A DNA stretch of 64,000 nt, taken from UHGV virus genome UHGV-1366919; one strand, 5' to 3'. Positions 1,505 through 62,299 of this stretch are shown one piece after another. Position 1 is the first letter of the stretch. Each line of letters begins with the position of its first letter. A program made the translations under genes and the position numbers. The stretch comes from a virus. Under the pieces are notes generated by a model. That model was not told the origin of the DNA and ran no database searches. It saw only the letters and a list, made by a program, of their open reading frames with translations.

Positions 1505-1518
1505 AAAAGGTGCTTAAA
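1505..1518 (-). promoter_or_regulatory. conserved upstream motif (coding-strand TTAAnCACCTTT), about 51 nt 5' of start of 1104..1454
   Basis: + strand aaaaggtgcttaaa. One of at least 11 copies. Confidence 0.4.
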
Positions 1519-1944
1519 TTAATTCCAGTTATTATCATTATCAATCATAATTACATAATGATGTCTTAAGAAATCGACATAATCAATCCCTTCTCTATCC
1601 AATAAATTACTTGATTGATGATCAATTGTAGAAGGTTCAAAAGATTCTTTAATATATATTTCAAAATTATTGCCAAAAGCATTATGAACTACTTCAGAAA
1701 AATGTTCTATTGAATACTCATTGACTATAAAATAAACATATAGATAATTTAATTTTTGTTGAAGTGATTTAATATCATTGCCTACCCATCCGTAAGATCG
1801 AGGATATATGTACAATTTCTCATCTTTTAATAGTTTATTAAATTCTTCGTCAACAGAAATATTTTGATTATCTTGTGCCAAAGATAGCGTATGGCATGAA
1901 GATGAATTTGTTTCAAATATATTTTTTCTAATTTTCTTTTTCAT
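1519..1944 (-). CDS. hypothetical protein, FETNSSS-motif paralog family
   Basis: 141 aa. MKKKIRKNIFETNSSSCH N-terminus. Confidence 0.55.
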   Translation of the reverse strand: MKKKIRKNIFETNSSSCHTLSLAQDNQNISVDEEFNKLLKDEKLYIYPRSYGWVGNDIKSLQQKLNYLYVYFIVNEYSIEHFSEVVHNAFGNNFEIYIKESFEPSTIDHQSSNLLDREGIDYVDFLRHHYVIMIDNDNNWN

Positions 1945-2428
1945 TGTAAATTACTTTAAGAGGATCTACATGATTAACTTTTACAATTCTCCATTTGGAA
2001 CCATCCCAAAAATAATGGTAATCATCAAAATATTCTCCAAGATATTTCATATAAACATCTTCCATTGAAGCATGCTCATGAGCCTTGATATTATTCCATT
2101 CTTCACCTGGACGATTACAATAAAACCTTGAAGCATTTTTATCGTCAGTCTCTTCACCTTTATAAGGAGAATCATAATTTTTATCCCAAATGGCAAGACC
2201 GACGGGTTGATTCAAAAAAGAAACATCACCATGGTTTACAATCCAGTCAGCCAGCTCCTGACTATTAAAATATGTTCTAAGCTGATTAAAAAGCCAGTCC
2301 GGATAACCGTCAGAATGATTATAAACAGAACGATAAATTCCATCCGTTCCCAATACTGTAATACAAGCAGAAGTAGACATTTTAGTTTTTAATTTTGTTA
2401 AAGATTTCTTCAATAGACTTATAATCAT
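1928..2428 (-). CDS. hypothetical protein
   Basis: 166 aa ORF, compact operon-like packing, no recognisable motif. Confidence 0.4.
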   Translation of the reverse strand: MIISLLKKSLTKLKTKMSTSACITVLGTDGIYRSVYNHSDGYPDWLFNQLRTYFNSQELADWIVNHGDVSFLNQPVGLAIWDKNYDSPYKGEETDDKNASRFYCNRPGEEWNNIKAHEHASMEDVYMKYLGEYFDDYHYFWDGSKWRIVKVNHVDPLKVIYNEKEN

Positions 2429-3386
2429 TTAAGTTATATCGATCAACCGATGTAGAATTTTTTGCAAATTCTTCCTTTACCAGATCAATATACATAGTAA
2501 AACTGCCGTCATCGCCCATATAATGGGCTTTCCAATCTTCTGGAGAAACATACTTTTTAATATTAAGTTGTTCAAGTGCAAGATTATCAAATGATAGAAC
2601 CTTAAAAGACTCTAAATATTCTGGTATTTTTGCTTCAAGTTCGGCAATCTTTTTACGAATAGTCGCACCATGACAATTAATAAAATCTTTTCCCCGTCGA
2701 ATTGATTTATATCCAAGAATAAGAACCTTTAATTCTTTTGAGACCAAAGGTTCAAGATTATGAATACCGGCAATAGTATGAATTACTGCATTTTCAGGAA
2801 TATAAAGAGATTTAATTACTTTCTTGAGGTAATCAACAGAACCATTATAAGAAATACCTACGCCATAAACAAGCTTTTCCTTTTGCCATTGGCGAACTTT
2901 ATTAAGGTTTTCTTCAATTTCAATATGATGCTGGTTAACTGTAATATTTGAAATTACTCCAAGATCTTTTAAACGAATAAGAAATTCTTCAAAATCAGGA
3001 TGTTCAAAAATATTGCCTCCACCGATAGCAATTTCCTGTCCTGGATGAAGCATAGACAAAATTGGATGATTGATATTTCCATGAAGTCCGTCGACTACTG
3101 AATTTTCATGACAGAAAGCGCAACCCATATCGCATTTGTTAGTGATTTTGCAATCAATATTCTCTGGGAATTGCGCAATAAATTCATCATCTTCAGTAGT
3201 TCTGACCTTAGTACCATCTGAATAAATTTTTACATCATAATTTCCGTTCTGATACAAGTGAAGAAGGGGAGGTTCTGGAATTTTATAAATCTTCATTATA
3301 TTCTTTGAGTAAATGAAATCATTGAAATTAACCGAGCTTAAGCAATAGGTTTTTTGAGACGAATTCTTAAACATGATTAACATCAT
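2382..3386 (-). CDS. radical SAM domain protein
   Basis: CDMGCAFCHE = CxxxCxxC iron-sulfur cluster-binding motif near the N-terminus of a 334 aa protein. Confidence 0.55.
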   Translation of the reverse strand: MMLIMFKNSSQKTYCLSSVNFNDFIYSKNIMKIYKIPEPPLLHLYQNGNYDVKIYSDGTKVRTTEDDEFIAQFPENIDCKITNKCDMGCAFCHENSVVDGLHGNINHPILSMLHPGQEIAIGGGNIFEHPDFEEFLIRLKDLGVISNITVNQHHIEIEENLNKVRQWQKEKLVYGVGISYNGSVDYLKKVIKSLYIPENAVIHTIAGIHNLEPLVSKELKVLILGYKSIRRGKDFINCHGATIRKKIAELEAKIPEYLESFKVLSFDNLALEQLNIKKYVSPEDWKAHYMGDDGSFTMYIDLVKEEFAKNSTSVDRYNLNDYKSIEEIFNKIKN

Positions 3387-3429
3387 CGATATTGGTATTA
3401 TCTTAATAATACCTTTACTCTCAACTCCT

Positions 3430-3442
3430 GAAGGTGTTTAGA
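3430..3442 (-). promoter_or_regulatory. conserved upstream motif, about 44 nt 5' of radical SAM gene start
   Basis: + strand gaaggtgtttaga. Confidence 0.4.
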
Positions 3443-3540
3443 CATATAATTTAAATTAATTTTTATAAATTATTTTTATAAACTTAGAGGATAATAAGGA
3501 TAAAAATTAAAGAGTTCATAAAAATAATTTTAGAAGATTT

Positions 3541-3580
3541 ATAATAAAAAATCCCGAATCTCTTAACGAAATCCGGGATT
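3541..3580 (-). terminator. intrinsic terminator hairpin downstream of tail-fiber gene
   Basis: aatcccg...cgggatt stem (3550-3556 / 3574-3580) followed by a T-run on the minus strand. Confidence 0.45.
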
Positions 3581-3605
3581 CATATAATCACTGAAACAGA
3601 AAATC

Positions 3606-4601: not shown

Positions 4602-4648
4602 AAAGATATTTATTAATACGCCAGACGGAATCCTAAATACAAAACATA

Positions 4649-6385: not shown

Positions 6386-6643
6386 CTATTTATCTGAATT
6401 CAAAATAAGCACAATATTACCATGTGAATCAATCAAATAAATCTTTTTAATATCATTGTTATAGATTTGATTTTTAAACTCAATAAGAGGAATTAAACCA
6501 AAAACATTTTCCAAAATATTAAAGCATTCGGCATCTGACATTGTACCCAGACATTCCCAACTATAAGTTTCACTACACCGGCGGTGAAGGAAATTTCTAA
6601 TTTGATTGATATGTTTTTTTGAAGTAAAATAACGATAATCCAT
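6386..6643 (-). CDS. hypothetical protein
   Basis: 85 aa ORF. Confidence 0.35.
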   Translation of the reverse strand: MDYRYFTSKKHINQIRNFLHRRCSETYSWECLGTMSDAECFNILENVFGLIPLIEFKNQIYNNDIKKIYLIDSHGNIVLILNSDK

Positions 6644-6665
6644 ATTTATATTATAAAAATAGCCT

Positions 6666-7784
6666 TTATATTTGTAAGTGCTTAGAAATTAAATCTTTAA
6701 TTTGTTGATTGTTCTTTTTCCAATCATTTTCCCAAACTTCAATTAATTTGATACCATTTTCTTTACAAGCTTTTCGTTTATTCTTGTGATAACCTGGTTC
6801 TTTCTCTTCGTGAAATTGATGCCAATATTCACCATTATATTCAAAAGCTAATTTAAGTTCGGGAAGATAAATGTCCAATTCTTTTCCGCCAATAAATTTT
6901 CGAGTATTTTCTAAAATCTTGCCAGAATAAAGAGATTTAATATATTGGCAAAGCTCTTTTTCACCCTTAGAACGTTGTATCGCAATGGCACAATTAGGGC
7001 AACCTCTTCCGCTTAAATGAGCATAAGGAGCTTGTTTAAAAATATAATTACATTTATTACATTTAATTATAATTTTCTTATGAGAATGATTATAAGCAGA
7101 TAACGAATAATCATACCTATCTTTATCATGTACTTTTTCAGCTTTTTTAATAAAAGCTTGTAAAGTAGATATACGATTTAAATTTCGACATTTAATGCAT
7201 CCAACACCTTTAAGATGCTGTTTAGGTGTTTGTTTAAAAATATGGCCGCACTTATTACATTTAATAGTAACTTTTATAAGATAACCCTTATAAAGGGTTG
7301 AAGAATAATCAAATCGATTTTTTCCATGAATTTCTTCTGCCTTTTTAATAAATTCATCTATTGATAAATGCTGACGTTCCTTTCCACATTCTGGACAACC
7401 TGCACCGTTTAAATGATTTCCAGCTTTTTGCTCAAATATACTATCATGATAAAGACATTTGATTTTAACATTAGTATCATTATTAATATAGTTGACAAAA
7501 GAATAATCATAAATTCCTTTGCCATGAACAGATTCAGCTTTTTGTATAAATTCTTGAAGAGTTAATCTCGATTTTTCTGCATTTTTTGTTACTGCACATT
7601 TTGGACAGCCATGTCCATACCAATGCATATATGCAGCTTGTTCAAAGGTATGACCACATTTATTACATTTTATTATAAGCTTGGCTTTAGAACCCTGGTA
7701 AACTGATAGAGAATAGTCATACCTATCAGGACCATGCTTTTTTATGGCTTTTTCAATAAACTTTTCAGTTGTAAACTTTACCAT
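6666..7784 (-). CDS. free-standing homing-endonuclease-like protein (paralog 1)
   Basis: 372 aa. About five repeats of the unit FI.KA..HG.KYDYS...Y.N....I.C..HG.F.Q....HL.G.GC..C. C-terminal ELDIYLPELKLAFEYNGEYWH...GIKLIEVW module. Confidence 0.65.
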   Translation of the reverse strand: MVKFTTEKFIEKAIKKHGPDRYDYSLSVYQGSKAKLIIKCNKCGHTFEQAAYMHWYGHGCPKCAVTKNAEKSRLTLQEFIQKAESVHGKGIYDYSFVNYINNDTNVKIKCLYHDSIFEQKAGNHLNGAGCPECGKERQHLSIDEFIKKAEEIHGKNRFDYSSTLYKGYLIKVTIKCNKCGHIFKQTPKQHLKGVGCIKCRNLNRISTLQAFIKKAEKVHDKDRYDYSLSAYNHSHKKIIIKCNKCNYIFKQAPYAHLSGRGCPNCAIAIQRSKGEKELCQYIKSLYSGKILENTRKFIGGKELDIYLPELKLAFEYNGEYWHQFHEEKEPGYHKNKRKACKENGIKLIEVWENDWKKNNQQIKDLISKHLQI

Positions 7785-9013: not shown

Positions 9014-11371
9014 TTAATATAGTTTATAGTTGAGTTTTTTGAGAATTCGCTTAAAGGTTAATTTAACTTTATCTTTTGTTTGAAATCCTGCACCATTTAA
9101 AACCGCTTGTATTTTTTCTTTTACAGAAGAAGTCATAATATTGGTTGAAATATTATCCAAACAAACTGATGACATAGTATAAAAGAAATTCAATATTTCT
9201 TTATCTGAAAGCTTTTTAATTTCAGCATCAAACTCTCTTTGAATATTATAACATTGATTTGCTAAAATTGAAAGATCAAATATATCCATTATGAATCGGT
9301 TAAATCCTCCTCTATAAAGATTAATTTCATATCTTGTAGAGATAACCGGATAATCAGGAGTCGATGCAGAAATTTTTGGAGCTGTATATCCTGTTACAGA
9401 TTTAAAATCAATATCATAAATCCTGCAGATATTAATGATTTGATCTGGAAGATAAACGAGTTTATGCTTTTTACAATATTCAATATAGGTTTCTTTCCAT
9501 TTAATTTCCATAGCTGAAATGCACCCGAGAGAAACAAATTTATCGTAATGGTTTTTATAAAGCTTTGCTATTCGTTTAATGCCAAAATCTGTACAAAGAT
9601 GAGACTGATAAAGCTGCGTCGGACTATTATAATTAACGAAATTTGTACAAAAGGCCAGATAAGAATTAAGGTAGTTATCATTATTCATGAGCATTGAAGG
9701 ATAAAATACTAACGTATTTTTGTATTCTTTCTCATCAATAATTTCACCGGTATAATAATCCCGGAGAACTACCGCTTCACCATCTGAAGACTTTATTCTT
9801 TTAGGCCTGACATATGTTGAATGCTTAACAATATCAGAATAATTAAACCAATCGATATTTTGCCTAAAGCACGGCTTGTCGTTAAAAGTAAAGGCCGTCC
9901 TTAAATTAAGGAAATTTGCTTTTTCTTCTTCATCTTTAACAAAACAAAAAATATGAGTTCTTCGAAGATCAAAGACTTCTGCTCGATAATCATTCCCCCT
10001 AAGGTGAACAAGATAATTATAAAGGGCATTAATTATTTCACCATAAGGAAGCTTGATAGGATCTTTATCTTGAACGATAAAGATTATTTCACCGTCAAAC
10101 TTCTTAATTGTCGGATTTGAATAAAGGCTTTTCGTTTTAAGATTAATATTAGTAATATTGCCTGAACCTACATAATAATTTTTTGCAACTGAGCAAACAG
10201 TATTCAAATAGCAATCCGGCCATTTAATAATTGAACTATTTCGATAAAATAAAGTACTTTTTGAGTTAGCTTTATTGATAATATCTGAACAAAGTAAATC
10301 ACTGTCAATAAGTTTATCGACATAATCATTAATAGTCTTTTCATAATTTTTATTAATGATTTTAAATTTACCCTTAATCCAATCATTTGTGAAATTGTTT
10401 ATTTCAATCGATTCTCTGGTGGGAGAAATCGGAATTTCACCGCGTTTAAAAAATAAAAGAACGGTACAAGCATTTTTAATGATATTATATTCATTAAAGA
10501 TTTCATTAGGAATATCAATCTTGTAAATGTTATCTCCATCATAAGCATAATAATTACAGCTCTTAAAAAATGAAGAATAAAAAGTATTAGAAGACCAGTT
10601 ATTCGGAATCAGCAAAACTGTATCTTTAATATAAAGAACTCGGGATTTGTCAAGAAATTCTTTATCTCGATACTTTGCAAATCTTGGGGTTTTTTCGTAA
10701 GGGACATAATTTTCCCATTTATCCTCCGGTACGTCTTCAATGTCTATTTTTTCCGGATAACTCCTAAGTTCAATGACAGGTTCATCACTATTGAAGCCAA
10801 AAGTAATATACGCATCCTTGATTAAATCAAGGAACTTGTAATAATCATCAGAATTATTAAGAGGAATCTTTACCTCAATACCCGTATCATTCAAATCACA
10901 GGGTTCAGAATGAATCAAAGAAGCAATAGAATCATTACCATCAATGCTTGAAGAAAATGTATATTTTGTTCCTTCAAATCGAGAAATTACCAAATAAAGG
11001 CCTGTATATGCCGCAGGAGCCTTAGACCCGATTCCAAATCCTCCAATGGATGTATTTTCTTGATTCTTGGTAGATTCAAAATATTGAAAGAAAACTTGAA
11101 AAGTATCTTCTTTGCTAAGACCCCTGGCAAAATCACGAATAGAAAGTTCATTTTTTGTAAGATGAATAGAAACAGGCATTTTAATGCCATATTTTACATG
11201 TTCATCCAAAGCATTGCTTAACGTTTCAAAAAGTGTTGCCTTAAATTTGTCTGAATAGATCCTATCGCGCAAAATAGAAATTGCCATTCCTACGCGCTCG
11301 GCCGAGATAGACTGTTTGACCTGTTCGGCTATACCTCCGCAAATACTTTTATTCTCTTCAAAAACCTTCAT
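9014..11371 (-). CDS. rIIA: rIIA-like protein with N-terminal GHKL ATPase fold
   Basis: TSIGGFGIGSKAPAAYT matches T4 rIIA DFIGGFGLGSKSPFSYT. Lies immediately upstream of rIIB, the same order as in T4. Confidence 0.8.
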   Translation of the reverse strand: MKVFEENKSICGGIAEQVKQSISAERVGMAISILRDRIYSDKFKATLFETLSNALDEHVKYGIKMPVSIHLTKNELSIRDFARGLSKEDTFQVFFQYFESTKNQENTSIGGFGIGSKAPAAYTGLYLVISRFEGTKYTFSSSIDGNDSIASLIHSEPCDLNDTGIEVKIPLNNSDDYYKFLDLIKDAYITFGFNSDEPVIELRSYPEKIDIEDVPEDKWENYVPYEKTPRFAKYRDKEFLDKSRVLYIKDTVLLIPNNWSSNTFYSSFFKSCNYYAYDGDNIYKIDIPNEIFNEYNIIKNACTVLLFFKRGEIPISPTRESIEINNFTNDWIKGKFKIINKNYEKTINDYVDKLIDSDLLCSDIINKANSKSTLFYRNSSIIKWPDCYLNTVCSVAKNYYVGSGNITNINLKTKSLYSNPTIKKFDGEIIFIVQDKDPIKLPYGEIINALYNYLVHLRGNDYRAEVFDLRRTHIFCFVKDEEEKANFLNLRTAFTFNDKPCFRQNIDWFNYSDIVKHSTYVRPKRIKSSDGEAVVLRDYYTGEIIDEKEYKNTLVFYPSMLMNNDNYLNSYLAFCTNFVNYNSPTQLYQSHLCTDFGIKRIAKLYKNHYDKFVSLGCISAMEIKWKETYIEYCKKHKLVYLPDQIINICRIYDIDFKSVTGYTAPKISASTPDYPVISTRYEINLYRGGFNRFIMDIFDLSILANQCYNIQREFDAEIKKLSDKEILNFFYTMSSVCLDNISTNIMTSSVKEKIQAVLNGAGFQTKDKVKLTFKRILKKLNYKLY

Positions 11372-11395
11372 GCTTAAATTACAATAACAAAATTA

Positions 11396-12301
11396 CTATA
11401 ATTTTTCTCTAATTTTCTGGAGGTGTTCAGATATTTCTTTTTTAATGGTTTCTGCATTAGTTTTCCATTGGCTGTCCCAAACTTCAATTAAAGTGATTCC
11501 GGCATCTTTACAAAGTTGCCTTTTATTTTCATGATAGCCAGGTTCTTTTTCTTCATGTATTTTATGCCAGTATTCGCCATTATATTCAAGGGCAAGTTTT
11601 AATTCAGGAAGATAAATATCCAATTCTTTTCGACCAATAAATTTTCTTGTATTTTCGAGAATTTCTCCAGGATAAATTGATTTGATAAAATCGCATAACT
11701 CCTTTTCACCCTTAGATTTCTTTTCATGAAGGGCACATTTTAAACATCCCCGCCCAGTTAAGTGATTATACGCCATTTGAGCAAATTTACCATGGACAGG
11801 ACAAATAATAATCACATTTGTTTCTGCATTAATATAAATTGTTTTCGAATAATCGAATTTATGTCCATGCACTTTTTGAGCACGGTTAATAAATTCTTTT
11901 GTGGTTAAACGCTCCAATCCTACGCAACTTTTGCATCCATGCCCCCTTAAATGATTGATGGGATATTGCTGAAAAGGTCCATGAACAGGGCAAATAATAG
12001 GTACTTTTGCATGATTATTTTTATAGTTTACTTTAGAATAATCATATTTGTTCCCATGAACCTCTCTTGCTTTCTTTATAAACTTCTCAGTCGTTAAAGA
12101 TTTTGCATCAACTGCACATTTAAAACATCCCTGACCTCGTAAATGGGCTCCGGCTCTTTGTTGGAAAGGTCCATGAACCGGGCAAATAACAGTTATAGAA
12201 CTATAAGCATTTTTATAATTTACTTCAGAATAATCAAAAAAGTCTCCATGTATTTTTCTAGCCCTGTCAATAAAAATTTCAGTGGTTATTCTGTTGGGCA
12301 T
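11396..12301 (-). CDS. free-standing homing-endonuclease-like protein (paralog 2)
   Basis: 301 aa. Four zinc-ribbon-like repeats (CPVHGPF.Q...HLRG.GC..C) and the C-terminal ELDIYLPELKLALEYNGEYWH module. Inserted between rIIA and GroEL. Confidence 0.65.
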   Translation of the reverse strand: MPNRITTEIFIDRARKIHGDFFDYSEVNYKNAYSSITVICPVHGPFQQRAGAHLRGQGCFKCAVDAKSLTTEKFIKKAREVHGNKYDYSKVNYKNNHAKVPIICPVHGPFQQYPINHLRGHGCKSCVGLERLTTKEFINRAQKVHGHKFDYSKTIYINAETNVIIICPVHGKFAQMAYNHLTGRGCLKCALHEKKSKGEKELCDFIKSIYPGEILENTRKFIGRKELDIYLPELKLALEYNGEYWHKIHEEKEPGYHENKRQLCKDAGITLIEVWDSQWKTNAETIKKEISEHLQKIREKL

Positions 12302-12376: not shown

Positions 12377-13981
12377 TCACTTTTCAGATTGTTCATCAAC
12401 CAAAAATGTTTCTGTTGTTAGAATCAAACCTGCCGATGCAGCGGCGTTTTCAATTGCGCAACGACATACACTAAATGGATCAATAATTCCCGCTTCTAAC
12501 ATGTCTACTAACTTTTGCGTCTTAATATCAAACCCAATACTGCCTTTAGCTTTTGCGACCTTTTCGATGATAACATCCGGCCGTTCAACTCCGGCATTCT
12601 CAAGAAGAGTCTTAAGAGGAATGTCAAGAACCTTTCGCATCAGGTTAATACCAGCATTAAAAGATTCATCCCCTGTTTCAAACTTAATAGACTTATTCTC
12701 TTTAATCTTAGCAAGAACAGATCCTCCCCCTGGAATAACTCCGGATCGTAAAGCTGCTTGACAGGCACATACCGCATCATCTACCCGGTCCTTAATTTCA
12801 TTTAATTCAGATTCAGAATTACCTCCGATATTAAGAACACATACTCCTTGGGCAAGCTTGGCAATTCGCTTATTAAGCACATCTTCTTCCCATGTGCCGG
12901 GACTGCAATTATCTCGTTCCTCCTTAAGCAAATCAATATGTTCTTTAAGCCTTTGAGGATTTCCTCCGCCTTTTAAGAAAGTTGTATATCGTTTATCACA
13001 AACAATCTTTTCACAGGTGGCAAAATCTTCCTCTCTAATAGAATTAAAATCACGTGAAAGAAGTTCAGTAAAATATGTACCTCCTAAAGTAATTTCAAGA
13101 TCTTCCATTTCCCTCTTCATGCCGTCTCCATATCCTGGACACTTAATGGCACAAATGTTAATAATGCCTTTAATCTTATTAATGACAAGAGTTTGAAGAA
13201 CTTCGGATTCAATATCCGGAGCGATAATAAACAAAGGCCTTCCGCGAAGTTCTTTAGTATTAAAGACTTTCTGAAGAATAGGCATAATTTGCTGATTATT
13301 TGTCAATTTAATTCCAGATAAAAGAATTAAGGGATTTTCAAGAATACATTCTTGTTTAGTCGTATTATTGACAAAATAAGAACTCATCCAGCCTCGAGGA
13401 ACTCGTAAACCTGCAATAAACTGAGAAGAAGATTCATTGCTCCTGCTGTCATTAATAGTAATGGAACCATCCAAACCTACTTTTTCAACAGCTTCAGAAA
13501 CAAGATGTGCAATTTCTTTATCCCAGTTGGTAGAAACTAAAGCAATTTGGTGAATCTGTTCTGGAGAACATTCCTGCTTAATATTTTCTTTAATATAGTT
13601 GGCAATTGTCTTTGCCGCTGAAATAACTCCGCGTTGAATTGAAATCGGATTATAACCTGTTTCAATCAGCTTCATGCCTTCAGATGCAATAGCCTCAGTG
13701 AGGATTGCGCTGGTACTGGTCCCATCACCAGCCTGGTGCGCTGATTGCTCGGATGCTTGACGAATAATATCTGCACCCATTTTTTCAAGTACATCAGGCG
13801 GATTTACATGGCGAGCTACTGTAACGCCGTCTTTTGTAATATATGTCGCATTACCCATTCGATATATTACATTTCTACCGCCAGGCCCGAGCGTCGAAGA
13901 AACTGCATTAGCAAGTTTCTTTACACCATTAAGCAGTTTCTTCCTGCCTTCATTTCCCATATAAATGTTTTGTTGAATCAT
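12377..13981 (-). CDS. groEL: phage-encoded GroEL-family (Hsp60) chaperonin
   Basis: 534 aa. TLGPGGRNVI, ITKDGVTVAR, AGDGTSTSAILTEAI and VIPGGGSVLAK match GroEL TLGPKGRNVV, ITKDGVSVAR, AGDGTTTATVLAQAI and VVAGGGVALIR. No C-terminal GGM tail. Confidence 0.9.
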   Translation of the reverse strand: MIQQNIYMGNEGRKKLLNGVKKLANAVSSTLGPGGRNVIYRMGNATYITKDGVTVARHVNPPDVLEKMGADIIRQASEQSAHQAGDGTSTSAILTEAIASEGMKLIETGYNPISIQRGVISAAKTIANYIKENIKQECSPEQIHQIALVSTNWDKEIAHLVSEAVEKVGLDGSITINDSRSNESSSQFIAGLRVPRGWMSSYFVNNTTKQECILENPLILLSGIKLTNNQQIMPILQKVFNTKELRGRPLFIIAPDIESEVLQTLVINKIKGIINICAIKCPGYGDGMKREMEDLEITLGGTYFTELLSRDFNSIREEDFATCEKIVCDKRYTTFLKGGGNPQRLKEHIDLLKEERDNCSPGTWEEDVLNKRIAKLAQGVCVLNIGGNSESELNEIKDRVDDAVCACQAALRSGVIPGGGSVLAKIKENKSIKFETGDESFNAGINLMRKVLDIPLKTLLENAGVERPDVIIEKVAKAKGSIGFDIKTQKLVDMLEAGIIDPFSVCRCAIENAAASAGLILTTETFLVDEQSEK

Positions 13982-14003
13982 GATTTACAATTATTATAGC
14001 ATG
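13978..14003. repeat. copy B of imperfect 26-bp direct repeat flanking the HEG at 13978..15069
   Basis: tcatgatttacaattattatagcatg. 21/26 identical to 15066..15091 tcacgatttttaatcattatagcacg. Both copies contain TGcTATAAT and end at a start codon (GroEL ATG / HEG GTG). Confidence 0.6.
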
Positions 14004-18508: not shown

Positions 18509-18778
18509 TTAAATTTTAATTTTTTGATTTTCGTCCAAATATTTGTATTCGTTAAGTATTACAAATTGATTTTTAATACTTTCTTTATCCCAATTAACTC
18601 CAATTTCTTTGAATTTATTAACGCTTAATTTAATTTCAGTCTGCCCGTTTCTTATTAACCAAAACTTGGCTTTTTCATCAATTGTTATTTCTCCATCAGA
18701 AGGAATTAAAGTATGGTAATAATTTTCAAGAAATGCTTTTTGATTGCGCGTCCAAAGCCATTTAGGATAATCAAGCAT
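18509..18778 (-). CDS. hypothetical protein
   Basis: 89 aa. Confidence 0.35.
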   Translation of the reverse strand: MLDYPKWLWTRNQKAFLENYYHTLIPSDGEITIDEKAKFWLIRNGQTEIKLSVNKFKEIGVNWDKESIKNQFVILNEYKYLDENQKIKI

Positions 18779-18806
18779 ATTAAAATAATAAACTTTTACT
18801 ATTCTT

Positions 18807-18820
18807 TTAAAGGTGATTAA
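18807..18820 (-). promoter_or_regulatory. conserved upstream motif, about 29 nt 5' of 18509..18778
   Basis: + strand ttaaaggtgattaa. Confidence 0.4.
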
Positions 18821-19586: not shown

Positions 19587-19797
19587 AAATAATAATAGTT
19601 AGTAGAGCGATAATTCCCCCGAAAATAATTCCAAGAATAGTAGCAGCAATAGAAATCCAAGTTGGAGAAAATAACTGAATCCAATTCCAATTAGTAAAAG
19701 GCTCATAACCAAACCAATACCAAAATAGAATCATCATCTGAAGAAATCCTCCAACAGATAAACCATTATTAATAGCTTTATTTGTTATATTCTTCAT
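19573..19797 (-). CDS. small membrane protein
   Basis: 74 aa with two hydrophobic helices. Confidence 0.4.
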   Translation of the reverse strand: MKNITNKAINNGLSVGGFLQMMILFWYWFGYEPFTNWNWIQLFSPTWISIAATILGIIFGGIIALLTIIIFDND

Positions 19798-19819
19798 TAA
19801 AAATATAATATGAAAATTC

Positions 19820-20155
19820 TTAGTTATCGAAAGTGCTCAACTCTGAAGTTTGAAGTTCTGCATTCCAAATTGGTTTCCAACTATATTTGTCATCATAAGG
19901 AGTCATAGGAATAATCCTGGGAGCTTCTTTATTATTAATAACTTTTTCTTTATTAATAATATCTTGAGCCTCTTTATAACATTTCTCCATAATAGATGAA
20001 ATATTATCAGACTTAATAGTTGCTATCGGCTTCTTTTCCTCTTCAATAATAATATTAATAATCTTCCTAAGTTTAAAATCTGACAACTTGGAAAGATCAA
20101 TTTGTTTTACCATTTTGATAAGGATTTCTCTTTGAGTTTCAGTTTCCGAGCTCAT
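19820..20155 (-). CDS. hypothetical protein
   Basis: 111 aa. Confidence 0.35.
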   Translation of the reverse strand: MSSETETQREILIKMVKQIDLSKLSDFKLRKIINIIIEEEKKPIATIKSDNISSIMEKCYKEAQDIINKEKVINNKEAPRIIPMTPYDDKYSWKPIWNAELQTSELSTFDN

Positions 20156-22428: not shown

Positions 22429-22457
22429 TATTTTTTAATAAATTATTTCTTAAAAAT

Positions 22458-22471
22458 CGATGGTGTTTAAA
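22458..22471 (-). promoter_or_regulatory. conserved upstream motif variant (CACCAT), about 30 nt 5' of DNA ligase gene
   Basis: + strand gatggtgtttaaac. Confidence 0.35.
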
Positions 22472-23829: not shown

Positions 23830-23859
23830 GAATTCATTTTATAAATTTCCTTAAAACTT

Positions 23860-23874
23860 GAAGGTGTTTAATGG
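23860..23874 (-). promoter_or_regulatory. conserved upstream motif, about 31 nt 5' of nucleotidyltransferase gene; 17 nt before a TATAAAAT element
   Basis: + strand gaaggtgtttaatgg. Confidence 0.4.
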
Positions 23875-27635: not shown

Positions 27636-27658
27636 TTCTTTTTATCTTATCAGTATTC

Positions 27659-28207
27659 TCAATTATCCATGGTGTTTTGCCATCTTATAAATTTCTCAAT
27701 AGCGAGCCTGTAATCACCTACTGTATGAATTTCTAATTGAGCTGGAATAAATTTCCAAAGCAGATAAAGACTGCTAATATCTGAAAAATAGGTATCATGA
27801 TAAATGTCCATCAATTCTTCAATATAAAAAATAGAACGGTAGACAACTTTGGAATATTTTAAAAGCGTATCATAAAGCATACTTCCGCCAATGCAAACCA
27901 CCTCTTCTTCGGAATCTTTAAATTTATCTATAAAATCGCATATATTAATTTTAATAACATTATCAGGCAGATTAAGAGGCAAATCCCGGGAAGTAATAAT
28001 AAAATGATTTAAGCGATTTTTTAAAGGTTTAAAATTCAAACTTTCAAAAGTGTTATAACCCATCACAACACTTTTTCCTTCGGTAACATTTTTAAAATGT
28101 TCCATATCTCTTCTAGCTATTTCTTTATATTTTTGACCTTTCCAGGGAAGAGAATTTTTATGTCCAATAGAACCATTGGGAAGCATTGCAAAAATTGAAG
28201 AAATCAT
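27659..28207 (-). CDS. frd: dihydrofolate reductase
   Basis: LPW, VVMGYNTFESL, IGG motifs. Immediately upstream of td, as in T4 (frd-td). Confidence 0.75.
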   Translation of the reverse strand: MISSIFAMLPNGSIGHKNSLPWKGQKYKEIARRDMEHFKNVTEGKSVVMGYNTFESLNFKPLKNRLNHFIITSRDLPLNLPDNVIKINICDFIDKFKDSEEEVVCIGGSMLYDTLLKYSKVVYRSIFYIEELMDIYHDTYFSDISSLYLLWKFIPAQLEIHTVGDYRLAIEKFIRWQNTMDN

Positions 28208-30163: not shown

Positions 30164-30221
30164 TTTTAAATTTAAAATAAATTTTTCCTAAACTTAAAAA
30201 AGTGTTTTAATTAATTTTAAA

Positions 30222-31246: not shown

Positions 31247-31274
31247 ATATTAATATTAATTAATGACATAAAAT

Positions 31275-31289
31275 TTAAAGGTGATTAAT
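31275..31289 (-). promoter_or_regulatory. conserved upstream motif, about 29 nt 5' of 30902..31246
   Basis: + strand tttaaaggtgattaa. Confidence 0.4.
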
Positions 31290-31340
31290 TATTATATTCA
31301 TTTTAATAATATTAAAATAATTTAACATTCATAAGAATGA

Positions 31341-31353
31341 TATTAACACCTAT
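31341..31353 (+). promoter_or_regulatory. conserved upstream motif, + orientation, 5' of holin gene (divergent partner of 31275..31289)
   Basis: attaacacctatc. Confidence 0.35.
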
Positions 31354-31367
31354 CTGAATTTTTAAAG

Positions 31368-31655
31368 GTGTTCCGATTATCTTTAAATATTAATATGGCT
31401 GAAGATAATAAAATTGATCCTACCCTTTGGGTAAAACTTATTGCTTGGTTAAAGGCTCGTTTAAGTGAAAGTTCTACCTGGTCTGCTTTAGTAGTTTTAG
31501 GATCCTACCTAGGATATGTTTGGGATCCTGCGCTAATTGAACAAATTTGTTTAATTGGTGTAAGTTTACTGGCAGTTATCCAAATTATTCGTAAAGATCC
31601 TGTAACAGCGGTTAAAGAATTAACTCCTGAAGAATCTAAAAAAGAAAAAGAATAA
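31368..31655 (+). CDS. putative holin (small two-helix membrane protein); probable true start at the internal ATG (MAEDNK)
   Basis: Two hydrophobic helices and a charged C-terminus. Directly upstream of the endolysin. Confidence 0.45.
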   Translation: MFRLSLNINMAEDNKIDPTLWVKLIAWLKARLSESSTWSALVVLGSYLGYVWDPALIEQICLIGVSLLAVIQIIRKDPVTAVKELTPEESKKEKE

Positions 31656-34070: not shown

Positions 34071-34089
34071 GTAAAGCACCTTTTTAAAT
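34071..34089 (+). promoter_or_regulatory. conserved upstream motif 5' of 34154..34657
   Basis: gtaaagcacctttttaaat. Confidence 0.35.
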
Positions 34090-34153
34090 CCAGTTAATCT
34101 TTAAACTAAAATCAATGGAGGTCAATAAAGGCTTTCACTGATTTTTATTTTTT

Positions 34154-39875: not shown

Positions 39876-39923
39876 TTAATTAAAGCCCTGGAACTGATTT
39901 AATTCCTTTAAATATTAAACATA

Positions 39924-54666: not shown

Positions 54667-54681
54667 TTTTCACCTTTAAAT
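54667..54681 (+). promoter_or_regulatory. conserved upstream motif 5' of tape-measure gene
   Basis: ttttcacctttaaat. Confidence 0.35.
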
Positions 54682-60057: not shown

Positions 60058-60063
60058 AGCAAC

Positions 60064-61734
60064 ATGTTCATTTATAAGCTAAATTCAATCGAAAAATTAT
60101 TAACCGTAGCTAAAAATCGGGAATATGTACAAAATAATCCTGAACTTTGTAAGCTGCTTGAAAATCCTTTAATTAAGGATGATACTGAATTAGCTATTCA
60201 TTATAATGAATATAAGTTGAATTATCCTAATTCAGCTAAAAAGTTTGTAGATTATTTTTATATGCACGGGCCTGAACTTGATGTTGGGTCCTTGGATGAA
60301 TGGCGTACCATTATTCAAAATGATCCTGAACTTTTAGAGGAAGCAAATAAGAATGATTGTCGAATTGACGAGATTTGGGCTGAAAAACAAGCAGATAAAG
60401 AAAAGAATTATTCTTGGTCAACATTAGCAGATTTATATGACTGCTTATCTAAGCCATGTCAATATACTAATATGATTTCTCCTTCTATTGGTACAATTGG
60501 AGATAATCAGCCAAAATATAATCTTAAAAATACAAGTGGTTCTGATGAAGCAACTACTTTATTAGGTATTCCGGCATATATGATTAATAAAATGCCCCGG
60601 TATTTGCTTCAAGGTATTACCCAGTTAACTGACATGATTTCTTTGCAGTCTTCTGATATTTTTAATAAGATATTAGGCAGTAAAAAAGCTGTTAAAGAGG
60701 ACCCATATATTCTTAAAGATGTTGAAACTATTGGAGGAGACGTACTTGGTACTATTGCTTCAAGGATGGGTGATTGCTTCCGTCTTTATGAATATAAAAG
60801 ACGTTATAACCCATATGATTATGAACAAAATATGACCAGATCTGACCGATTTGGTACAGTAGTTTATGATGAGAATGGTAATCCCCATGTAAAAACACCA
60901 AATGGCAATAGTATGGAAAGTAAAACTGCCATTTTCTCGGATAATAGTCGTCTTAATCCAAATGTGAGCATAAACGATATTCGATTAAAAAATATTGGAG
61001 AAGTATCTCAGGATAATACTCTTCCAATAAAAATTACTGCTTATAATCCTATCTTTCTTCCGGACGGGCGTTATTATATTGATGCTAATACTTCTAATTA
61101 TGATAATGTTGGAATAGTCAGTGGAACTAATGAATCTGGAGTACGTCTTTTGCCGAATAGTGCATCTGGTATTGAACAATTGTCTAAAGAAAATAAAATA
61201 CTTCACGTCGGGTGTGCAACGCGTCCTAGAGATGTGATAAAATATTATCAGGCTTTTCTTATTAAAAATTATCCAAATCTTTCTCTTCCAAAGAACTTCT
61301 CAACATTAGTATCAAGAGCAATCAAATATTCTGATTTAAATGTTGTTCTTTTCTTCCCTAATGGACAACGTGTACTTCCAGTTTTTGATACTGGTGGTGG
61401 CCAACCTGAATCTCCTTGGATTGATATAACTGCCCAATATTTCTTTACTAAAGAAGGATGGGGGTTAGCTACACTCTATGATTCTTCCGGTAAAGCTATA
61501 ACAAGCGATGCCAATAATCCGATGCCAGAATTATTGGCATCTTCTGAACTTTCTAAAGCTAAGATTCAGCCTTATAAAATTAAGGCAATGAAGATTAACG
61601 GTGCTCCTAATAATAATGGGATAATTAACGGAAAATATTTCTTTTCTGAAAGTTTCTGTCAAACTAATGGATTAGATCCTCAAGTATATGCTCAAGTTGA
61701 TCAGGGAGCTCGCTTGGCTGGACTTCAAACTTAA
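60064..61734 (+). CDS. putative baseplate/tail protein
   Basis: 556 aa. Confidence 0.4.
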   Translation: MFIYKLNSIEKLLTVAKNREYVQNNPELCKLLENPLIKDDTELAIHYNEYKLNYPNSAKKFVDYFYMHGPELDVGSLDEWRTIIQNDPELLEEANKNDCRIDEIWAEKQADKEKNYSWSTLADLYDCLSKPCQYTNMISPSIGTIGDNQPKYNLKNTSGSDEATTLLGIPAYMINKMPRYLLQGITQLTDMISLQSSDIFNKILGSKKAVKEDPYILKDVETIGGDVLGTIASRMGDCFRLYEYKRRYNPYDYEQNMTRSDRFGTVVYDENGNPHVKTPNGNSMESKTAIFSDNSRLNPNVSINDIRLKNIGEVSQDNTLPIKITAYNPIFLPDGRYYIDANTSNYDNVGIVSGTNESGVRLLPNSASGIEQLSKENKILHVGCATRPRDVIKYYQAFLIKNYPNLSLPKNFSTLVSRAIKYSDLNVVLFFPNGQRVLPVFDTGGGQPESPWIDITAQYFFTKEGWGLATLYDSSGKAITSDANNPMPELLASSELSKAKIQPYKIKAMKINGAPNNNGIINGKYFFSESFCQTNGLDPQVYAQVDQGARLAGLQT

Positions 61735-61770
61735 TATAGTCATCTATTATCAAATTAAAAAGAGGAAAAT

Positions 61771-62268
61771 TTATTCATCTTCCTCTTTTTCTTCATTTTC
61801 AGGAGTTACTGTCCTTATTTCAGGAATAATATCATCGTCCAATAACTTCATAACTTCTTCTCGTGTCATTGGGGGACGAGTCATAGACATATTAATCTGT
61901 TGAAGCTTAGCCGCCTGTTTAAATTCTTCAAGTTCTTTTGCTTGTTTTAATTTTTCATTATTAAGAAAGATCTTTGTTAAATTTTCTACTGCTTTAGTCT
62001 TAGAACCAATCATTTCTGCAACAGATGTAATTAATTCTGCATCAGGAGTAGATCTAATTTGCTGCAGTAAAACATTAATAATATCTTGAGTAGTAGATAC
62101 AGTTTCTACACCACTTTTAATAATGTAATCTTCCAATTGTTCCCTATCTAAATGTTCAATTTCTTGATTTTCAATTTTAGCTGGAACTAAACTAGGTTGA
62201 GCTGATTCTTTGGATAATTCATCCAGAATCATTTGTAAAGAATCATCAGCATAATCTTGATTTAACAT
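61771..62268 (-). CDS. acidic hypothetical protein
   Basis: 165 aa, ends EEKEEDE. Confidence 0.4.
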   Translation of the reverse strand: MLNQDYADDSLQMILDELSKESAQPSLVPAKIENQEIEHLDREQLEDYIIKSGVETVSTTQDIINVLLQQIRSTPDAELITSVAEMIGSKTKAVENLTKIFLNNEKLKQAKELEEFKQAAKLQQINMSMTRPPMTREEVMKLLDDDIIPEIRTVTPENEEKEEDE

Positions 62269-62281
62269 TATTGATAGTTAA

Positions 62282-62299
62282 TAGTGCACCTTTTAAAAT
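62282..62299 (+). promoter_or_regulatory. conserved upstream motif about 45 nt 5' of clamp-loader gene
   Basis: tagtgcaccttttaaaat. Confidence 0.4.

What the first reader, a model, noticed from the sequence alone, without database searches (positions are those of the whole stretch)
1505..62299. Recurrent upstream motif TTAAnCACCTTT(AAA) 25-80 nt 5' of at least 11 genes on both strands
Copies in gene orientation:
- 1505..1518: tttaagcacctttt
- 3430..3442: tctaaacaccttc
- 18807..18820: ttaatcaccttta
- 22458..22471: tttaaacaccatc
- 23860..23874: attaaacaccttc
- 31275..31289: ttaatcacctttaaa
- 31341..31353: ttaacacctatc
- 34071..34089: taaagcacctttttaaat
- 54667..54681: ttttcacctttaaat
- 62282..62299: tagtgcaccttttaaaat
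- 30197..30213: variant ttaaaacactt
- 9051..9066: variant TTAACCTTTAAG, upstream of rIIB
- 39898..39915: variant TTAATTCCTTTAAAT

Every copy is oriented with the downstream gene. In several, a TATAAT-like element follows 17-19 nt later (for example 23860: CACCTT-17nt-TATAAAAT). This looks like a phage-specific promoter element, -35-like or an activator box analogous to the T4 MotA box, marking one temporal class of genes. CACCTT on the mRNA strand equals the 16S anti-SD, so an alternative reading is that it pairs with ribosome-binding sites in cis.
Basis: seen in the sequence. Interest (0 to 1): 0.6.

Follow-up and report, generated by a model that had tools for sequence, protein, structure and literature searches.

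The report
Conserved early-gene promoter, gut T4-like phage
The recurring CACC sequence is the upstream part of a three-block promoter placed in front of the early (DNA-metabolism) genes of an uncultured, very common ~200-kb T4-like phage, and in about half the cases it sits so that the mRNA would begin at or within four bases of the start codon.

Summary
CACCTT is at chance frequency genome-wide. However, 9 copies lie in the 4.6% of intergenic DNA, against about 1.1 expected.

Aligned on CACC, the sites share three blocks at rigid spacing:
- TTAArCAC(C/T)TTT
- (T/A)AAG, 12 nt later
- a sigma70-like -10 (TAnnnT), 21 nt after CAC(C/T)

The composite pattern occurs 16 times in 82.8 kb against 1.4 expected.

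A matrix trained only on this phage finds about 18 further sites in four diverged relatives, against about 0.9 expected. All of them lie on the early-gene strand. In rIIA-upstream alignments only the three blocks are invariant.

The window holds 14 sites. All point at their downstream gene, and those genes are non-structural: rIIA, ligase, thyA, clamp loader, exonuclease and small ORFs.

In eight sites the start codon lies at the predicted +1 to +5, implying leaderless or near-leaderless mRNAs. This fits the absence of Shine-Dalgarno sequences.

Sites 39898 and 54667 carry the separate late-promoter core TAAATA, and 9051 has no CAC box. A fourth, 31341, is ambiguous.

The anti-SD/RNA reading is rejected. 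The box does not match the T4 MotA box in sequence or spacing. Which protein reads the box, and what the host is, remain unresolved.

The parts
1482..1517 (-). Promoter for ORF 1104-1454 (116 aa, unknown function). Box TTAAGCACCTTT, mid block TTAAGA, weak -10 TTCAAT. ATG at position 59 from C1, giving a leader of about 21 nt.
Evidence: Matrix score 29.6; leave-one-out score 20.4.
3406..3441 (-). Promoter for 2382-3386 (Fe-S / radical-SAM oxidoreductase). Box CTAAACACCTTC, mid block TTGAGA, -10 TATTAT. ATG at position 51. A terminator hairpin at 3549-3581 lies upstream.
   Evidence: Full composite-pattern match; score 32.9; gene function; terminator.
6650..6685 (-). Promoter for 6386-6643 (85 aa). 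Box CTAAGCACTTAC, mid block TAAAGG, -10 TATAAT. ATG at position 38, the predicted +1, so leaderless.
   Evidence: Composite-pattern match; score 28.6.
11395..11430 (-). Promoter for rIIA (9014-11371). Box CTGAACACCTCC, mid block ATTAGA, -10 TATAGT. Leader of about 17 nt. It lies in the 3' end of the upstream HNH gene.
   Evidence: Composite-pattern match; score 30.5. In the four-phage alignment of rIIA-upstream regions, the invariant columns are almost entirely CAC, AGA and TATA.TA.
18785..18820 (-). Promoter for 18509-18778 (89 aa). Box TTAATCACCTTT, mid block AATAGT, -10 TATTAT. ATG at position 38 (leaderless).
   Evidence: Composite-pattern match; score 26.4.
19805..19840 (-). Promoter for 19573-19797 (74 aa). 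Box TTGAGCACTTTC, mid block CTAAGA, -10 TATTAT. ATG at position 39. It lies in the 3' end of the upstream ORF. Positional counterpart: L013 14297 = L019 2040.
22435..22470 (-). Promoter for the ATP-dependent DNA ligase (21286-22428). Box TTAAACACCATC, mid block TTAAGA, -10 TATTAA. ATG at position 38 (leaderless).
   Evidence: Score 30.3; leave-one-out score 25.3; gene function.
23836..23871 (-). Promoter for the RlaP-type nucleotidyltransferase (22783-23829). Box TTAAACACCTTC, mid block TTAAGG, -10 TAAAAT. ATG at position 38. It lies 20 nt after the terminator hairpin at 23886-23919.
   Evidence: A strain variant (L006) changes only spacer positions.
27644..27679 (-). Promoter for thymidylate synthase (26706-27635). 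Box CAAAACACCATG, mid block TTGAGA, -10 TAAGAT. ATG at position 40. The same spacing is seen at thyA of the relative L013 (site 3123).
30174..30209 (-). Promoter for the PD-(D/E)XK exonuclease (29444-30163). Box TAAAACACTTTT, mid block TTTAGG, -10 TATTTT. ATG at position 42.
Evidence: Composite-pattern match; score 25.7; gene function.
31253..31288 (-). Proximal promoter for 30902-31246 (114 aa). Box TTAATCACCTTT, mid block TTATGT, -10 TAATAT. ATG at position 38 (leaderless).
   Evidence: Score 27.8.
31340..31375 (-). Second, tandem promoter 87 nt upstream of the previous one. Box CGGAACACCTTT, mid block TTCAGA, -10 TAATAT.
   Evidence: Composite-pattern match; score 30.2.
34072..34107 (+). 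Promoter upstream of 34154-34657 (167 aa). Box TAAAGCACCTTT, mid block TCCAGT, -10 TAAACT. An 8-codon mini-ORF starts at position 39 (34115) and overlaps a terminator-like hairpin at 34116-34137.
   Evidence: Composite-pattern match; score 24.9; hairpin.
62282..62317 (+). Promoter for the clamp-loader subunit (62344-63303). Box TAGTGCACCTTT, mid block TTAAGA, -10 TACAAA. Leader of about 20 nt.
   Evidence: Score 28.7; leave-one-out score 22.1; gene function.

Best explanation
**What it is.** The CACC motif is the upstream block of a tripartite promoter for the pre-replicative (early/middle) genes of an uncultured ~203-kb T4-like phage.

**Anatomy.** Positions are counted from C1, the first C of CAC(C/T).
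- TTAArCAC(C/T)TTT at positions -4 to 7.
- (T/A)AAG at positions 14-17.
- TAtaAT at positions 26-31.
- A pyrimidine-purine step at positions 37/38.

**How it would work (inferred).**
- The third block has the sequence and placement of a sigma70-family -10 element.
- Initiation is therefore predicted 7 nt downstream, at position 38.
- That places the CACC box at -37 to -31, where a -35 element sits, and AAG at -23 to -21 in the spacer.
- A sigma70-family RNA polymerase holoenzyme is inferred to read the -10.
- The CACC and AAG blocks supply class specificity. They could be read by region 4 of the host sigma, by a phage sigma, or by a phage adaptor. Which one is not resolved.

**Consequence for the mRNAs.**
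- At 5 of 14 window sites the ORF's start codon is exactly at position 38. Two more sites in the 12 kb just left of the window (ext -8245 and L024 1613) do the same.
- At 3 more window sites the start codon is at positions 39-42.
- These mRNAs would be leaderless or nearly so. This fits a genome with no Shine-Dalgarno sequences.

**Shown versus inferred.**
- Shown: the anatomy, its statistics, its conservation across relatives, its strand and gene-class association, and the geometry relative to start codons.
- Inferred: promoter function, the start-site position, the reading factor, and the timing of expression.
For: **Enrichment in this phage.**
- Intergenic CACCTT is enriched and is the top hexamer in an unbiased scan.
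- The composite pattern CAC[CT]-N11-AG-N8-TAnnnT occurs 16 times against 1.38 expected.
- The matrix gives 16 hits against 0.12 expected at score >=16, and the seeds score well when left out.
- Columns that were not used to select the sites are also conserved: T-4, T-3, A-2, A-1, T5-T7, T13, T14, T37 and A38.

**Independent test in relatives.**
- A matrix trained only on this phage finds 2, 6, 7 and 4 hits in L013, L019, L020 and L021. Null expectation is 0.08-0.33 per locus.
- All of these hits are on the early-gene strand.
- There are no hits in more distant phages or in the Akkermansia contig.

**Phylogenetic footprint.** In the rIIA-upstream alignment of four phages, 11 of the 15 invariant columns are CAC, AGA and TATA.TA.

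**The -10 tracks the box, not the start codon.** The -10 block keeps its distance to CAC whatever the distance to the ATG, which ranges from 38 to 125.

**Start-codon geometry.** An ATG at position 38 recurs in this phage and in relatives. There it coincides with independently called gene starts: L013 14334, L019 21249, L020 10159 and L021 14368.

**Gene class and orientation.**
- 14 of 14 window sites are co-oriented with the downstream gene.
- All precede non-structural genes.
- There are no sites in the tail, baseplate or head modules.

**Context.**
- Terminator hairpins lie just upstream of sites 23866 and 3436.
- Six strain-level substitutions across three sites all fall outside the blocks.
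Against: - There is no transcript 5'-end data, so promoter function and the +1 position are inferred from sequence only.
- The -35-position box resembles no known sigma specificity. It is not TTGACA, not the T4 GTTTAC, and not the Bacteroidota TTTG.
- A conserved AAG in the spacer has no established reader.
- The host is unknown. There are only weak hints toward Verrucomicrobiota/Akkermansia. The absence of SD sequences would also fit Bacteroidota, where TATAAT-type promoters are not the host norm and leaderless mRNAs are rare (PMC7366714).
- Some -10 hexamers are weak: TTCAAT at site 1512 and TACAAA at site 62287.
- In 31%-GC DNA, TAnnnT arises easily by chance at any single site.
- Only about 95 kb of the ~203-kb genome could be read.
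Confidence: 0.75

Rival explanations
1. It is a T4 middle-promoter analogue. The CACC box is the binding site of a phage-encoded MotA-like activator working with a sigma-remodelling AsiA-like protein, so the class would be 'middle' rather than 'early'. This is a specific version of the unresolved reading-factor step in the best explanation.
For: - A sigma70-like -10 is combined with a non-canonical upstream element, as in T4 middle promoters (PMC1524935).
- The element is clade-specific. The AAG block is missing in the 40%-GC relatives, and the whole motif is absent from more distant relatives.
- The box matches neither canonical sigma70 nor Bacteroidota host consensus.
Against: - The box ends 18 bp from the -10 and sits at -37 to -31. 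The Mot box is 11-13 bp from the -10, with GCTT at -30 to -27. The sequence CACC is not GCTT.
- No MotA, AsiA or sigma hit was found among about 80 window ORFs scanned with PHROGs or Pfam.
- No other promoter class was seen in front of early-type genes that could provide the earlier transcription an activator would require.
Confidence: 0.2
2. The start site is at the conserved AAG, not at position 38. In this reading CACCTTTAAA acts as an extended -10-like element related to the late core TTTAAATA. Transcripts would start at A15-G17. The TATAAT block 6 nt before the ATG would be an A/U-rich translation-initiation region within a fixed 5' UTR of about 21-23 nt.
For: - The most common 5' UTR length in SD-less Bacteroides thetaiotaomicron is 23 nt (PMC7366714).
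- The box shares TTTAAA with the late-type core.
- The invariant AG could be the initiating nucleotides.
Against: - The TAnnnT block stays 21 nt from CAC even when the ATG is 50-125 nt away. In the rIIA alignments the ATG distance varies while the three blocks stay fixed. The block is therefore tied to the box, not to the start codon.
- Member sites lack the full TAAATA core that is strongly counter-selected inside genes.
- Positions 5-12 vary widely (TTCAGGAG, TCCAGAAA, ATCGATTT), which is poor for a -10 element.
Confidence: 0.07
3. It is an RNA-level element. CACCUU would mimic the 16S anti-SD and pair with ribosome-binding sites in cis, or it would be a 5' UTR operator or processing site.
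For: CACCTT is identical to the anti-SD core. One site (31347/31370) forms an AACACCT...AGGTGTT inverted repeat.
Against: - There are no SD-like sequences upstream of the genes (2 of 26).
- No AAGGTG partner lies downstream, apart from the one inverted repeat.
- Folding z-scores range from -0.72 to +0.72 at eight sites.
- There is no Rfam match.
- The rigid spacing to a -10-like DNA block and the DNA-strand specificity fit protein-DNA recognition.
- In the leaderless sites the box lies upstream of the predicted transcript.
Confidence: 0.03
4. It is a chance or compositional artefact. AT-rich intergenic DNA would simply make any C-containing word stand out.
For: The genome-wide CACCTT count equals expectation. 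The TTAA and TTTAAA flanks are common in 31%-GC DNA.
Against: - The composite pattern is more than 10-fold over local-shuffle expectation.
- A matrix trained on this phage recovers about 18 strand-consistent sites in four diverged relatives against about 0.9 expected.
- Conservation is confined to the blocks.
Confidence: 0.01

Closest known systems
T4-type early promoters (sigma70-dependent; -35 GTTTAC at -36 to -31, -10 TATAAT)
   Same: - There is an upstream element at the -35 position (-37 to -31 here) and a TAnnnT -10.
- The promoters lie 5' of early-gene orthologues (rIIA, ligase, clamp loader, thyA) and of small novel ORFs.
- All are co-oriented with their genes.
- A separate late class exists alongside (PMC1524935).
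   Different: - The box sequence is CAC(C/T)TT, not GTTTAC or TTGACA.
- There is an extra invariant AAG at -23 to -21.
- The start codon is often at +1 (leaderless), whereas T4 mRNAs carry SD-containing leaders (the latter from my own knowledge).
T4 MotA/AsiA-dependent middle promoters ((a/t)3TGCTTtA-N11-13-TAtaAT)
   Same: A host-type -10 is combined with a phage-specific upstream box in place of a canonical -35. The class drives DNA-metabolism genes.
   Different: - The box lies 5-7 bp further upstream.
- The sequence differs.
- The upstream signal is bipartite (CACC plus AAG).
- No motA or asiA homologue was detected in the part of the genome examined.
T4-type late promoters (gp55; TATAAATA, or CTAAATA in Aeromonas phage Aeh1)
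   Same: This phage has such a class: (C/T)TAAATA lies 5-10 nt before late genes. Both classes share a TTTAAA-like stretch, which probably caused the conflation.
   Different: CACC-class sites lack the full TAAATA core, have a distal box and a separate -10, and precede non-structural genes.
Bacteroidota primary-sigma promoters (TTTG at -33, TAnnTTTG at -7)
   Same: There is a long gap of 19-21 nt between the upstream element and the TA of the downstream element. Both occur in an SD-less translation context.
   Different: Neither TTTG nor TAnnTTTG is present at the sites. TAnnTTTG is not concentrated in intergenic DNA (5 of 164). In B. thetaiotaomicron only 3.7% of 5' UTRs are shorter than 10 nt.
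Phage-sigma-specific promoter classes (e.g. SPO1 gp28 middle promoters, phiEco32-like phage sigma) and leaderless phage transcripts (lambda cI from PRM; Thermus phage P23-45). These comparisons are recalled from my own knowledge and were not tested here.
   Same: They share the idea of a phage-specific bipartite promoter read by a replacement sigma, and of phage mRNAs that begin at the AUG.
   Different: No phage sigma was found in the window. Only distant relatives (L026, L027) encode a sigma70 homologue, and those relatives lack the motif (for L026; L027 was not scanned).

Membership tests
Sigma70-family (-35/-10) bacterial promoter | A -10 hexamer TAnnnT at a fixed distance from the upstream element | tested here: met
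   T26 in 15/17 sites, A27 in 16/17, T31 in 14/17. CAC[CT]-N21-TAnnnT occurs at 9 intergenic sites against 1.35 expected. The block is invariant in the rIIA footprint.
Sigma70-family (-35/-10) bacterial promoter | A TTGACA-like -35 hexamer 16-18 bp upstream of the -10 | tested here: not met
   The element is CAC(C/T)TT. The spacing is 19 bp, or 17 bp if the hexamer is taken as CCTTTA. Canonical TTGACA/TATAAT pairs are not enriched: 90 against 91.7, and 154 against 124 +/- 13.
Sigma70-family (-35/-10) bacterial promoter | A mapped transcription start 6-8 nt downstream of the -10 | not testable with these tools
   Only sequence proxies are available: Y37/R38 in most sites, and start codons at positions 38-42 in 8 of 14 window sites.
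T4 MotA-dependent middle promoter | A Mot box (a/t)3TGCTTtA with GCTT at -30 to -27, lying 11-13 bp upstream of the -10 | tested here: not met
   The box CACCTTT occupies -37 to -31 and ends 18 bp before the -10. The core is CACC, not GCTT.
T4 MotA-dependent middle promoter | motA and asiA orthologues in the genome | tested here: inconclusive
   No hit among about 80 window ORFs. However, more than half of the ~203-kb genome could not be read.
T4-type early promoter | GTTTAC at -36 to -31 plus TATAAT, located 5' of early genes and novel ORFs | tested here: inconclusive
   Position, the -10 and the gene class are met. The box sequence is not met. Early timing was not testable.
T4-type late promoter (gp55) | TATAAATA or CTAAATA at -13 to -6 with no -35 element, upstream of late genes | tested here: not met
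No member site contains TAAATA within its box, mid block or -10; at site 6680 a TAAATA lies just downstream of the -10, overlapping the start codon. All member sites precede non-structural genes.
Bacteroidota sigma-ABfr promoter | TAnnTTTG at -7 and TTTG at -33 | tested here: not met
   Neither is present at the sites. TAnnTTTG is intergenic in only 5 of 164 occurrences.
Anti-SD mimic / cis-acting RNA element | A complementary SD-like partner and a stable or covarying structure | tested here: not met
   SD-like sequences in 2 of 26 upstream regions. Folding z from -0.72 to +0.72. No Rfam family matched.

The most novel reading that the evidence does not exclude
A clade of highly prevalent, uncultured ~200-kb T4-like phages runs its whole pre-replicative programme from a promoter type with no known counterpart. 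A bipartite CACC/AAG specificity signal would be read by a phage-encoded sigma or adaptor, not by the host sigma alone. It would be coupled to wholesale leaderless mRNAs with the AUG at +1, in a host that does not use Shine-Dalgarno pairing. The host would possibly be Akkermansia or another Verrucomicrobiota member, for which no virulent phage had been characterised according to a 2026 paper (PMC13184272).
Probability: 0.3. Interest if true: 0.7.

Novelty: new variant of a known kind. Interest (0 to 1): 0.5.

Why it matters
- The phage is among the more prevalent in public metagenomes. One of its proteins is indexed in 977 assembly blocks, many on contigs of 201-204 kb. It has no cultured relative.
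- A validated promoter model gives a sequence-only way to partition its genes into temporal classes: the CACC class against the TAAATA late class. It also helps to correct start codons and to pick out host-takeover ORFs.
- If the predicted +1 positions hold, this would be a T4-like phage whose early mRNAs are largely leaderless. That bears on how translation starts in hosts that do not use SD pairing.
- The unusual -35-position box and the conserved spacer AAG are concrete handles for finding the reading factor, whether host sigma, phage sigma or an adaptor. Through that factor they may also help identify the host.

Tried and rejected
**Close cultured relatives.**
- Megablast of 20 kb against 50,697 phage records found no match.
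- Tail sheath, GroEL and TerL reach at most 39% identity to cultured phages. No annotated relative could be borrowed from.

**IMG/VR.**
- It holds only the source contig, one 98% twin and distant phages.
- Walking the contig by pattern search stalled at the stored-data boundary.

**Known promoter types.**
- Canonical sigma70 pairs are not enriched.
- The Bacteroidota -7 motif is not concentrated in intergenic DNA.
- TGnTATAAT extended -10 elements are not enriched: 9 against 15 expected.
- TATAAT depletion seen under local shuffles largely vanished under a synonymous-codon null. It remains only on the antisense strand, z = -3.0.

**RNA readings.** There is no Rfam family match and no excess folding.

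**Regulators.** No sigma, MotA or AsiA was found among about 80 window ORFs.

**Host.** Only two indirect hints were found, and neither is decisive.
- A TnpB in strain variants is 80% identical to one inside a low-GC island of an Akkermansia metagenome-assembled genome.
- A sigma70 gene in distant relatives is closest to Verrucomicrobiota RpoD.
- Literature searches found no description of this phage group, of its promoters or of Akkermansia promoters.

**Sites considered and set aside.**
- Site 48325 has CACCAAAA and a leave-one-out score of 0. It is part of a direct repeat flanking an HNH gene.
- Site 44681 has its AG shifted by 1 nt and scores 1.3.
- Site 31347 scores -3.4.
- Site 54671 scores -13.4.
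- Site 9051 has no CAC box.

Full report
**Provenance and context**

- The window is 31.3% GC.
- It matches IMG/VR contig IMGVR_UViG_3300045988_182131, which is 107 kb.
- The same phage occurs on ENA contigs of 201-204 kb. One of its proteins is indexed in 977 assembly blocks. The genome is therefore about 203 kb and the phage is very prevalent.
- The study-style sample names suggest human-gut metagenomes. This is my inference only.
- The gene content is T4-like:
  - rIIA, rIIB and GroEL
  - ATP-dependent DNA ligase, thymidylate synthase, DHFR and clamp loader
  - tail sheath and tube, baseplate hub, and TerL
- No cultured phage is close. Megablast finds nothing, and protein identities are at most 39%.
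- Start codons are not preceded by Shine-Dalgarno sequences (2 of 26), and the upstream region is depleted in G.

**Checking the observation**

- All 13 quoted strings are at the stated coordinates.
- CACCTT is at chance frequency overall: 20 copies in the window, and 26 against 26.8 expected in an 82.8-kb extended sequence.
- However, 9 copies lie in the 4.6% of the window that is intergenic. Expected is 1.13, with a maximum of 4 in 200 local shuffles.
- In an unbiased scan of intergenic hexamers, CACCTT ranks first: 10 observed against 2.1 expected.

**The real unit**

Aligning the intergenic copies on CACC showed two further conserved blocks at rigid spacing.
- An (T/A)AAG at positions 14-17. 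A16 is present in 16 of 17 sites and G17 in 17 of 17.
- A TAnnnT at positions 26-31. T26 is present in 15 of 17, A27 in 16 of 17, and T31 in 14 of 17.
- Columns that were not used for selection are also conserved: T-4, T-3, A-2, A-1, T5-T7, T13, T14, T37 and A38.

Statistics for the composite pattern and the matrix:
- CAC[CT]-N11-AG-N8-TAnnnT occurs 16 times in 82.8 kb against 1.38 expected.
- Several hits lie in the last codons of the upstream ORF.
- A position matrix gives 22 hits at score >=12 against 0.70 expected, and 16 at score >=16 against 0.12.
- 15 of 17 seeds score above 10 when left out of the matrix, and 14 of those above 12.
- The window holds 14 confident sites.

- Nine are members.
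- 31341 is ambiguous (score -3.4).
- 54667, 9051 and 39898 are not members.

**Independent test in relatives**

- Ligase and rIIA homologues at 30-64% identity led to contigs of related phages.
- The matrix, trained only on this phage, finds 2, 6, 7 and 4 hits in L013, L019, L020 and L021. Null expectation is 0.08-0.33 per locus.
- That is about 18 distinct sites, all on the strand of the early genes.
- There are none in more distant T4-like phages (L003-5, L017, L025, L026) or in an Akkermansia contig.
- In an alignment of the rIIA-upstream regions of four phages, 11 of the 15 invariant columns are CAC, AGA and TATA.TA.
- Relatives at about 40% GC (L014-16) keep CACC-N21-TATAAT but lack the AAG block.
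- Six strain-level substitutions at three sites all fall outside the three blocks. This is weak support, p about 0.07.

**Gene class**

- All 14 window sites point at the downstream gene.
- Those genes are rIIA, DNA ligase, an RlaP-type nucleotidyltransferase, thymidylate synthase, a PD-(D/E)XK exonuclease, a radical-SAM-like enzyme, the clamp loader and small unknown ORFs.
- No site at score >=16 lies in the head, tail or baseplate block at 34.6-61.7 kb.
- The roughly 20 kb of structural genes to the right gave no hit at score >=12 in L022. L023 gave two weak hits, 12.7 and 13.0.
- Strong terminator hairpins precede sites 23866 and 3436.

**Mechanism**

- The third block has the sequence and placement of a sigma70-family -10 element.
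- With the usual 7-nt distance, transcription would start at position 38, where a pyrimidine-purine step is conserved.
- That puts the CACC box at -37 to -31 and AAG at -23 to -21.
- The start codon of the longest ORF lies exactly at position 38 at 6680, 18815, 22465, 23866 and 31283. The same holds at two sites just outside the window (ext -8245 and L024 1613).
- It lies at positions 39-42 at 19835, 27674 and 30204.
- The same geometry recurs in relatives, at gene starts called independently by the source databases: L013 14334, L019 21249, L020 10159 and L021 14368. For thyA the ATG is at position 40 in both this phage and L013.
- Where the ATG is further away (positions 51-125), the -10 block keeps its distance to CAC, not to the ATG. 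The module is therefore a promoter rather than a translation-initiation signal.
- I infer leaderless or near-leaderless early mRNAs, which fits the lack of SD sequences.

**What it is not**

- Not a canonical sigma70 promoter. TTGACA/TATAAT pairs are not enriched.
- Not a Bacteroidota promoter. TAnnTTTG is intergenic in only 5 of 164 occurrences and is absent from the sites. The consensus is taken from PMC7366714.
- Not a T4 late promoter, because the box, mid block and -10 of the sites lack TAAATA.
- Not a Mot box. The T4 Mot box has GCTT at -30 to -27 and lies 11-13 bp from the -10 (PMC1524935). Here the box ends 18 bp from the -10.
- By position, the closest known element is the T4 early -35 (GTTTAC at -36 to -31).
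- The RNA / anti-SD idea fails on four counts:
  - There is no SD partner.
  - There is no excess structure.
  - There is no Rfam family match.
  - The box lies upstream of the predicted transcript.

**Who reads the box**

This is unresolved.
- No sigma, MotA or AsiA was found among about 80 window ORFs. More than half of the genome is out of reach.
- Two hints point to a Verrucomicrobiota host:
  - A TnpB in strain variants is 80% identical to one inside a low-GC island of an Akkermansia metagenome-assembled genome whose flanks are 59% GC.
  - Distant relatives (L026, L027) encode a sigma70 homologue of about 510 aa. Its named cellular best hits are Verrucomicrobiota RpoD.
- The phage's tRNAs for A/U-ending codons fit a GC-richer host.
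- Under either a Verrucomicrobiota or a Bacteroidota host, the CACC box is not the expected host -35. This keeps a phage-encoded specificity factor plausible.

**A second, separate signal**

- Under a synonymous-codon shuffle, TAAATA is the most depleted hexamer inside ORFs, in both orientations:
  - sense: 13 observed against 62.8 expected, z = -8.2 and -9.5;
  - antisense: 11 observed against about 80 expected, z about -10.
- 23 of its 47 copies are intergenic.
- They typically lie 5-10 nt before the ATG of structural genes and at divergent gene pairs.
- This matches T4-type late promoters: TATAAATA, or CTAAATA in phage Aeh1.

**Verdict**

The motif is a real, clade-conserved promoter with a new upstream specificity signal and a striking leaderless geometry. 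It is a new variant of a known kind. Promoter function and timing remain inferred.

Noticed in passing
Window-wide. Examples: 4634+, 4612-, 31384+, 32451+, 36883-, 39909+, 42217+, 44714+, 48260-, 52010-, 52018+, 54677+, 63937+: TAAATA is the most depleted hexamer inside ORFs under a synonymous-codon shuffle. On the sense strand it is 13 observed against 62.8 expected (z -8.2 to -9.5); on the antisense strand 11 against about 80 (z about -10). 23 of its 47 copies are intergenic, usually 5-10 nt before the ATG of structural genes. This looks like the gp55-type late-promoter core (compare CTAAATA in phage Aeh1), again with very short leaders.
   Followed up: partly
All gene starts in the window: There are no Shine-Dalgarno sequences (2 of 26 scanned). 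The upstream regions are A/T-rich and depleted in G. The string AAACATAATG recurs at starts 4649, 39924 and 52034.
   Followed up: partly
Coding sequences, window-wide: Several palindromic hexamers are strongly avoided in ORFs: GATATC 2 against 20.6 expected, TGATCA 5 against 20.9, ATGCAT 4 against 15.3. This may reflect avoidance of host restriction sites.
   Followed up: no
6666-7784, 11396-12301, 13978-15069, 32465-33994, 43518-44618, 48362-49711: There are six paralogous HNH/homing-endonuclease genes (five with best hit phrog_559; 32465-33994 best hits phrog_3339 and also hits 559). Two are preceded by strong terminator hairpins. 48362-49711 is flanked by a direct repeat TTAGCACCAAAATAAAATCAGGATAAAAT at about 48320 and 49685. 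The GroEL and HNH starts share TGCTATAATnATTnnAAATC(A/G)TG at 14001 and 15089.
   Followed up: partly
L007, L008 and L012 (strain variants); corresponds to window ~6666-7784 and to DNA left of the window: Some strains carry IS605-type TnpB/OrfB genes where the window has an HNH gene. One TnpB is 80% identical to a copy in a low-GC island of an Akkermansia metagenome-assembled-genome contig (L018, flanks about 59% GC). This is a weak host hint.
   Followed up: partly
L026 5814-7355; L027 10001-11521: Distant relatives (rIIA about 30% identical) encode a sigma70 of about 510 aa with regions 1.2-4. Its named cellular best hits are Verrucomicrobiota RpoD. L026 lacks the CACC motif; L027 was not scanned.
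   Followed up: partly
34115-34141 (+), hairpin 34116-34137: The 34077 promoter would start transcription at an 8-codon mini-ORF (MEVNKGFH*) whose ATG is at position 39. The mini-ORF overlaps a terminator-like hairpin followed by a T-run, upstream of gene 34154-34657. This could be a leader-peptide attenuator.
   Followed up: no
31345-31371: An inverted repeat AACACCT-N14-AGGTGTT is formed by two CACC boxes on opposite strands in the divergent 31247-31392 region.
   Followed up: partly
36887-38824, 38817-39272, 39276-39875 (all -): Terminase large-subunit similarity is spread over three consecutive ORFs. The gene may be split or interrupted.
   Followed up: no
19024-19111 (-); L024 3793-4923: The ARAGORN tRNA-Asp call inside ORF 18817-19281 has no Rfam support and is probably false. 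A genuine cluster of five tRNAs (Gln-UUG, Gly-UCC, Pro-UGG, Ile-UAU, Lys-UUU) lies about 8 kb left of the window.
   Followed up: partly
23836-23871 and 27644-27679 compared with L006: The window differs at a few bases from the IMG/VR contig that it otherwise matches. All six differences seen at promoter sites lie outside the three conserved blocks.
   Followed up: partly
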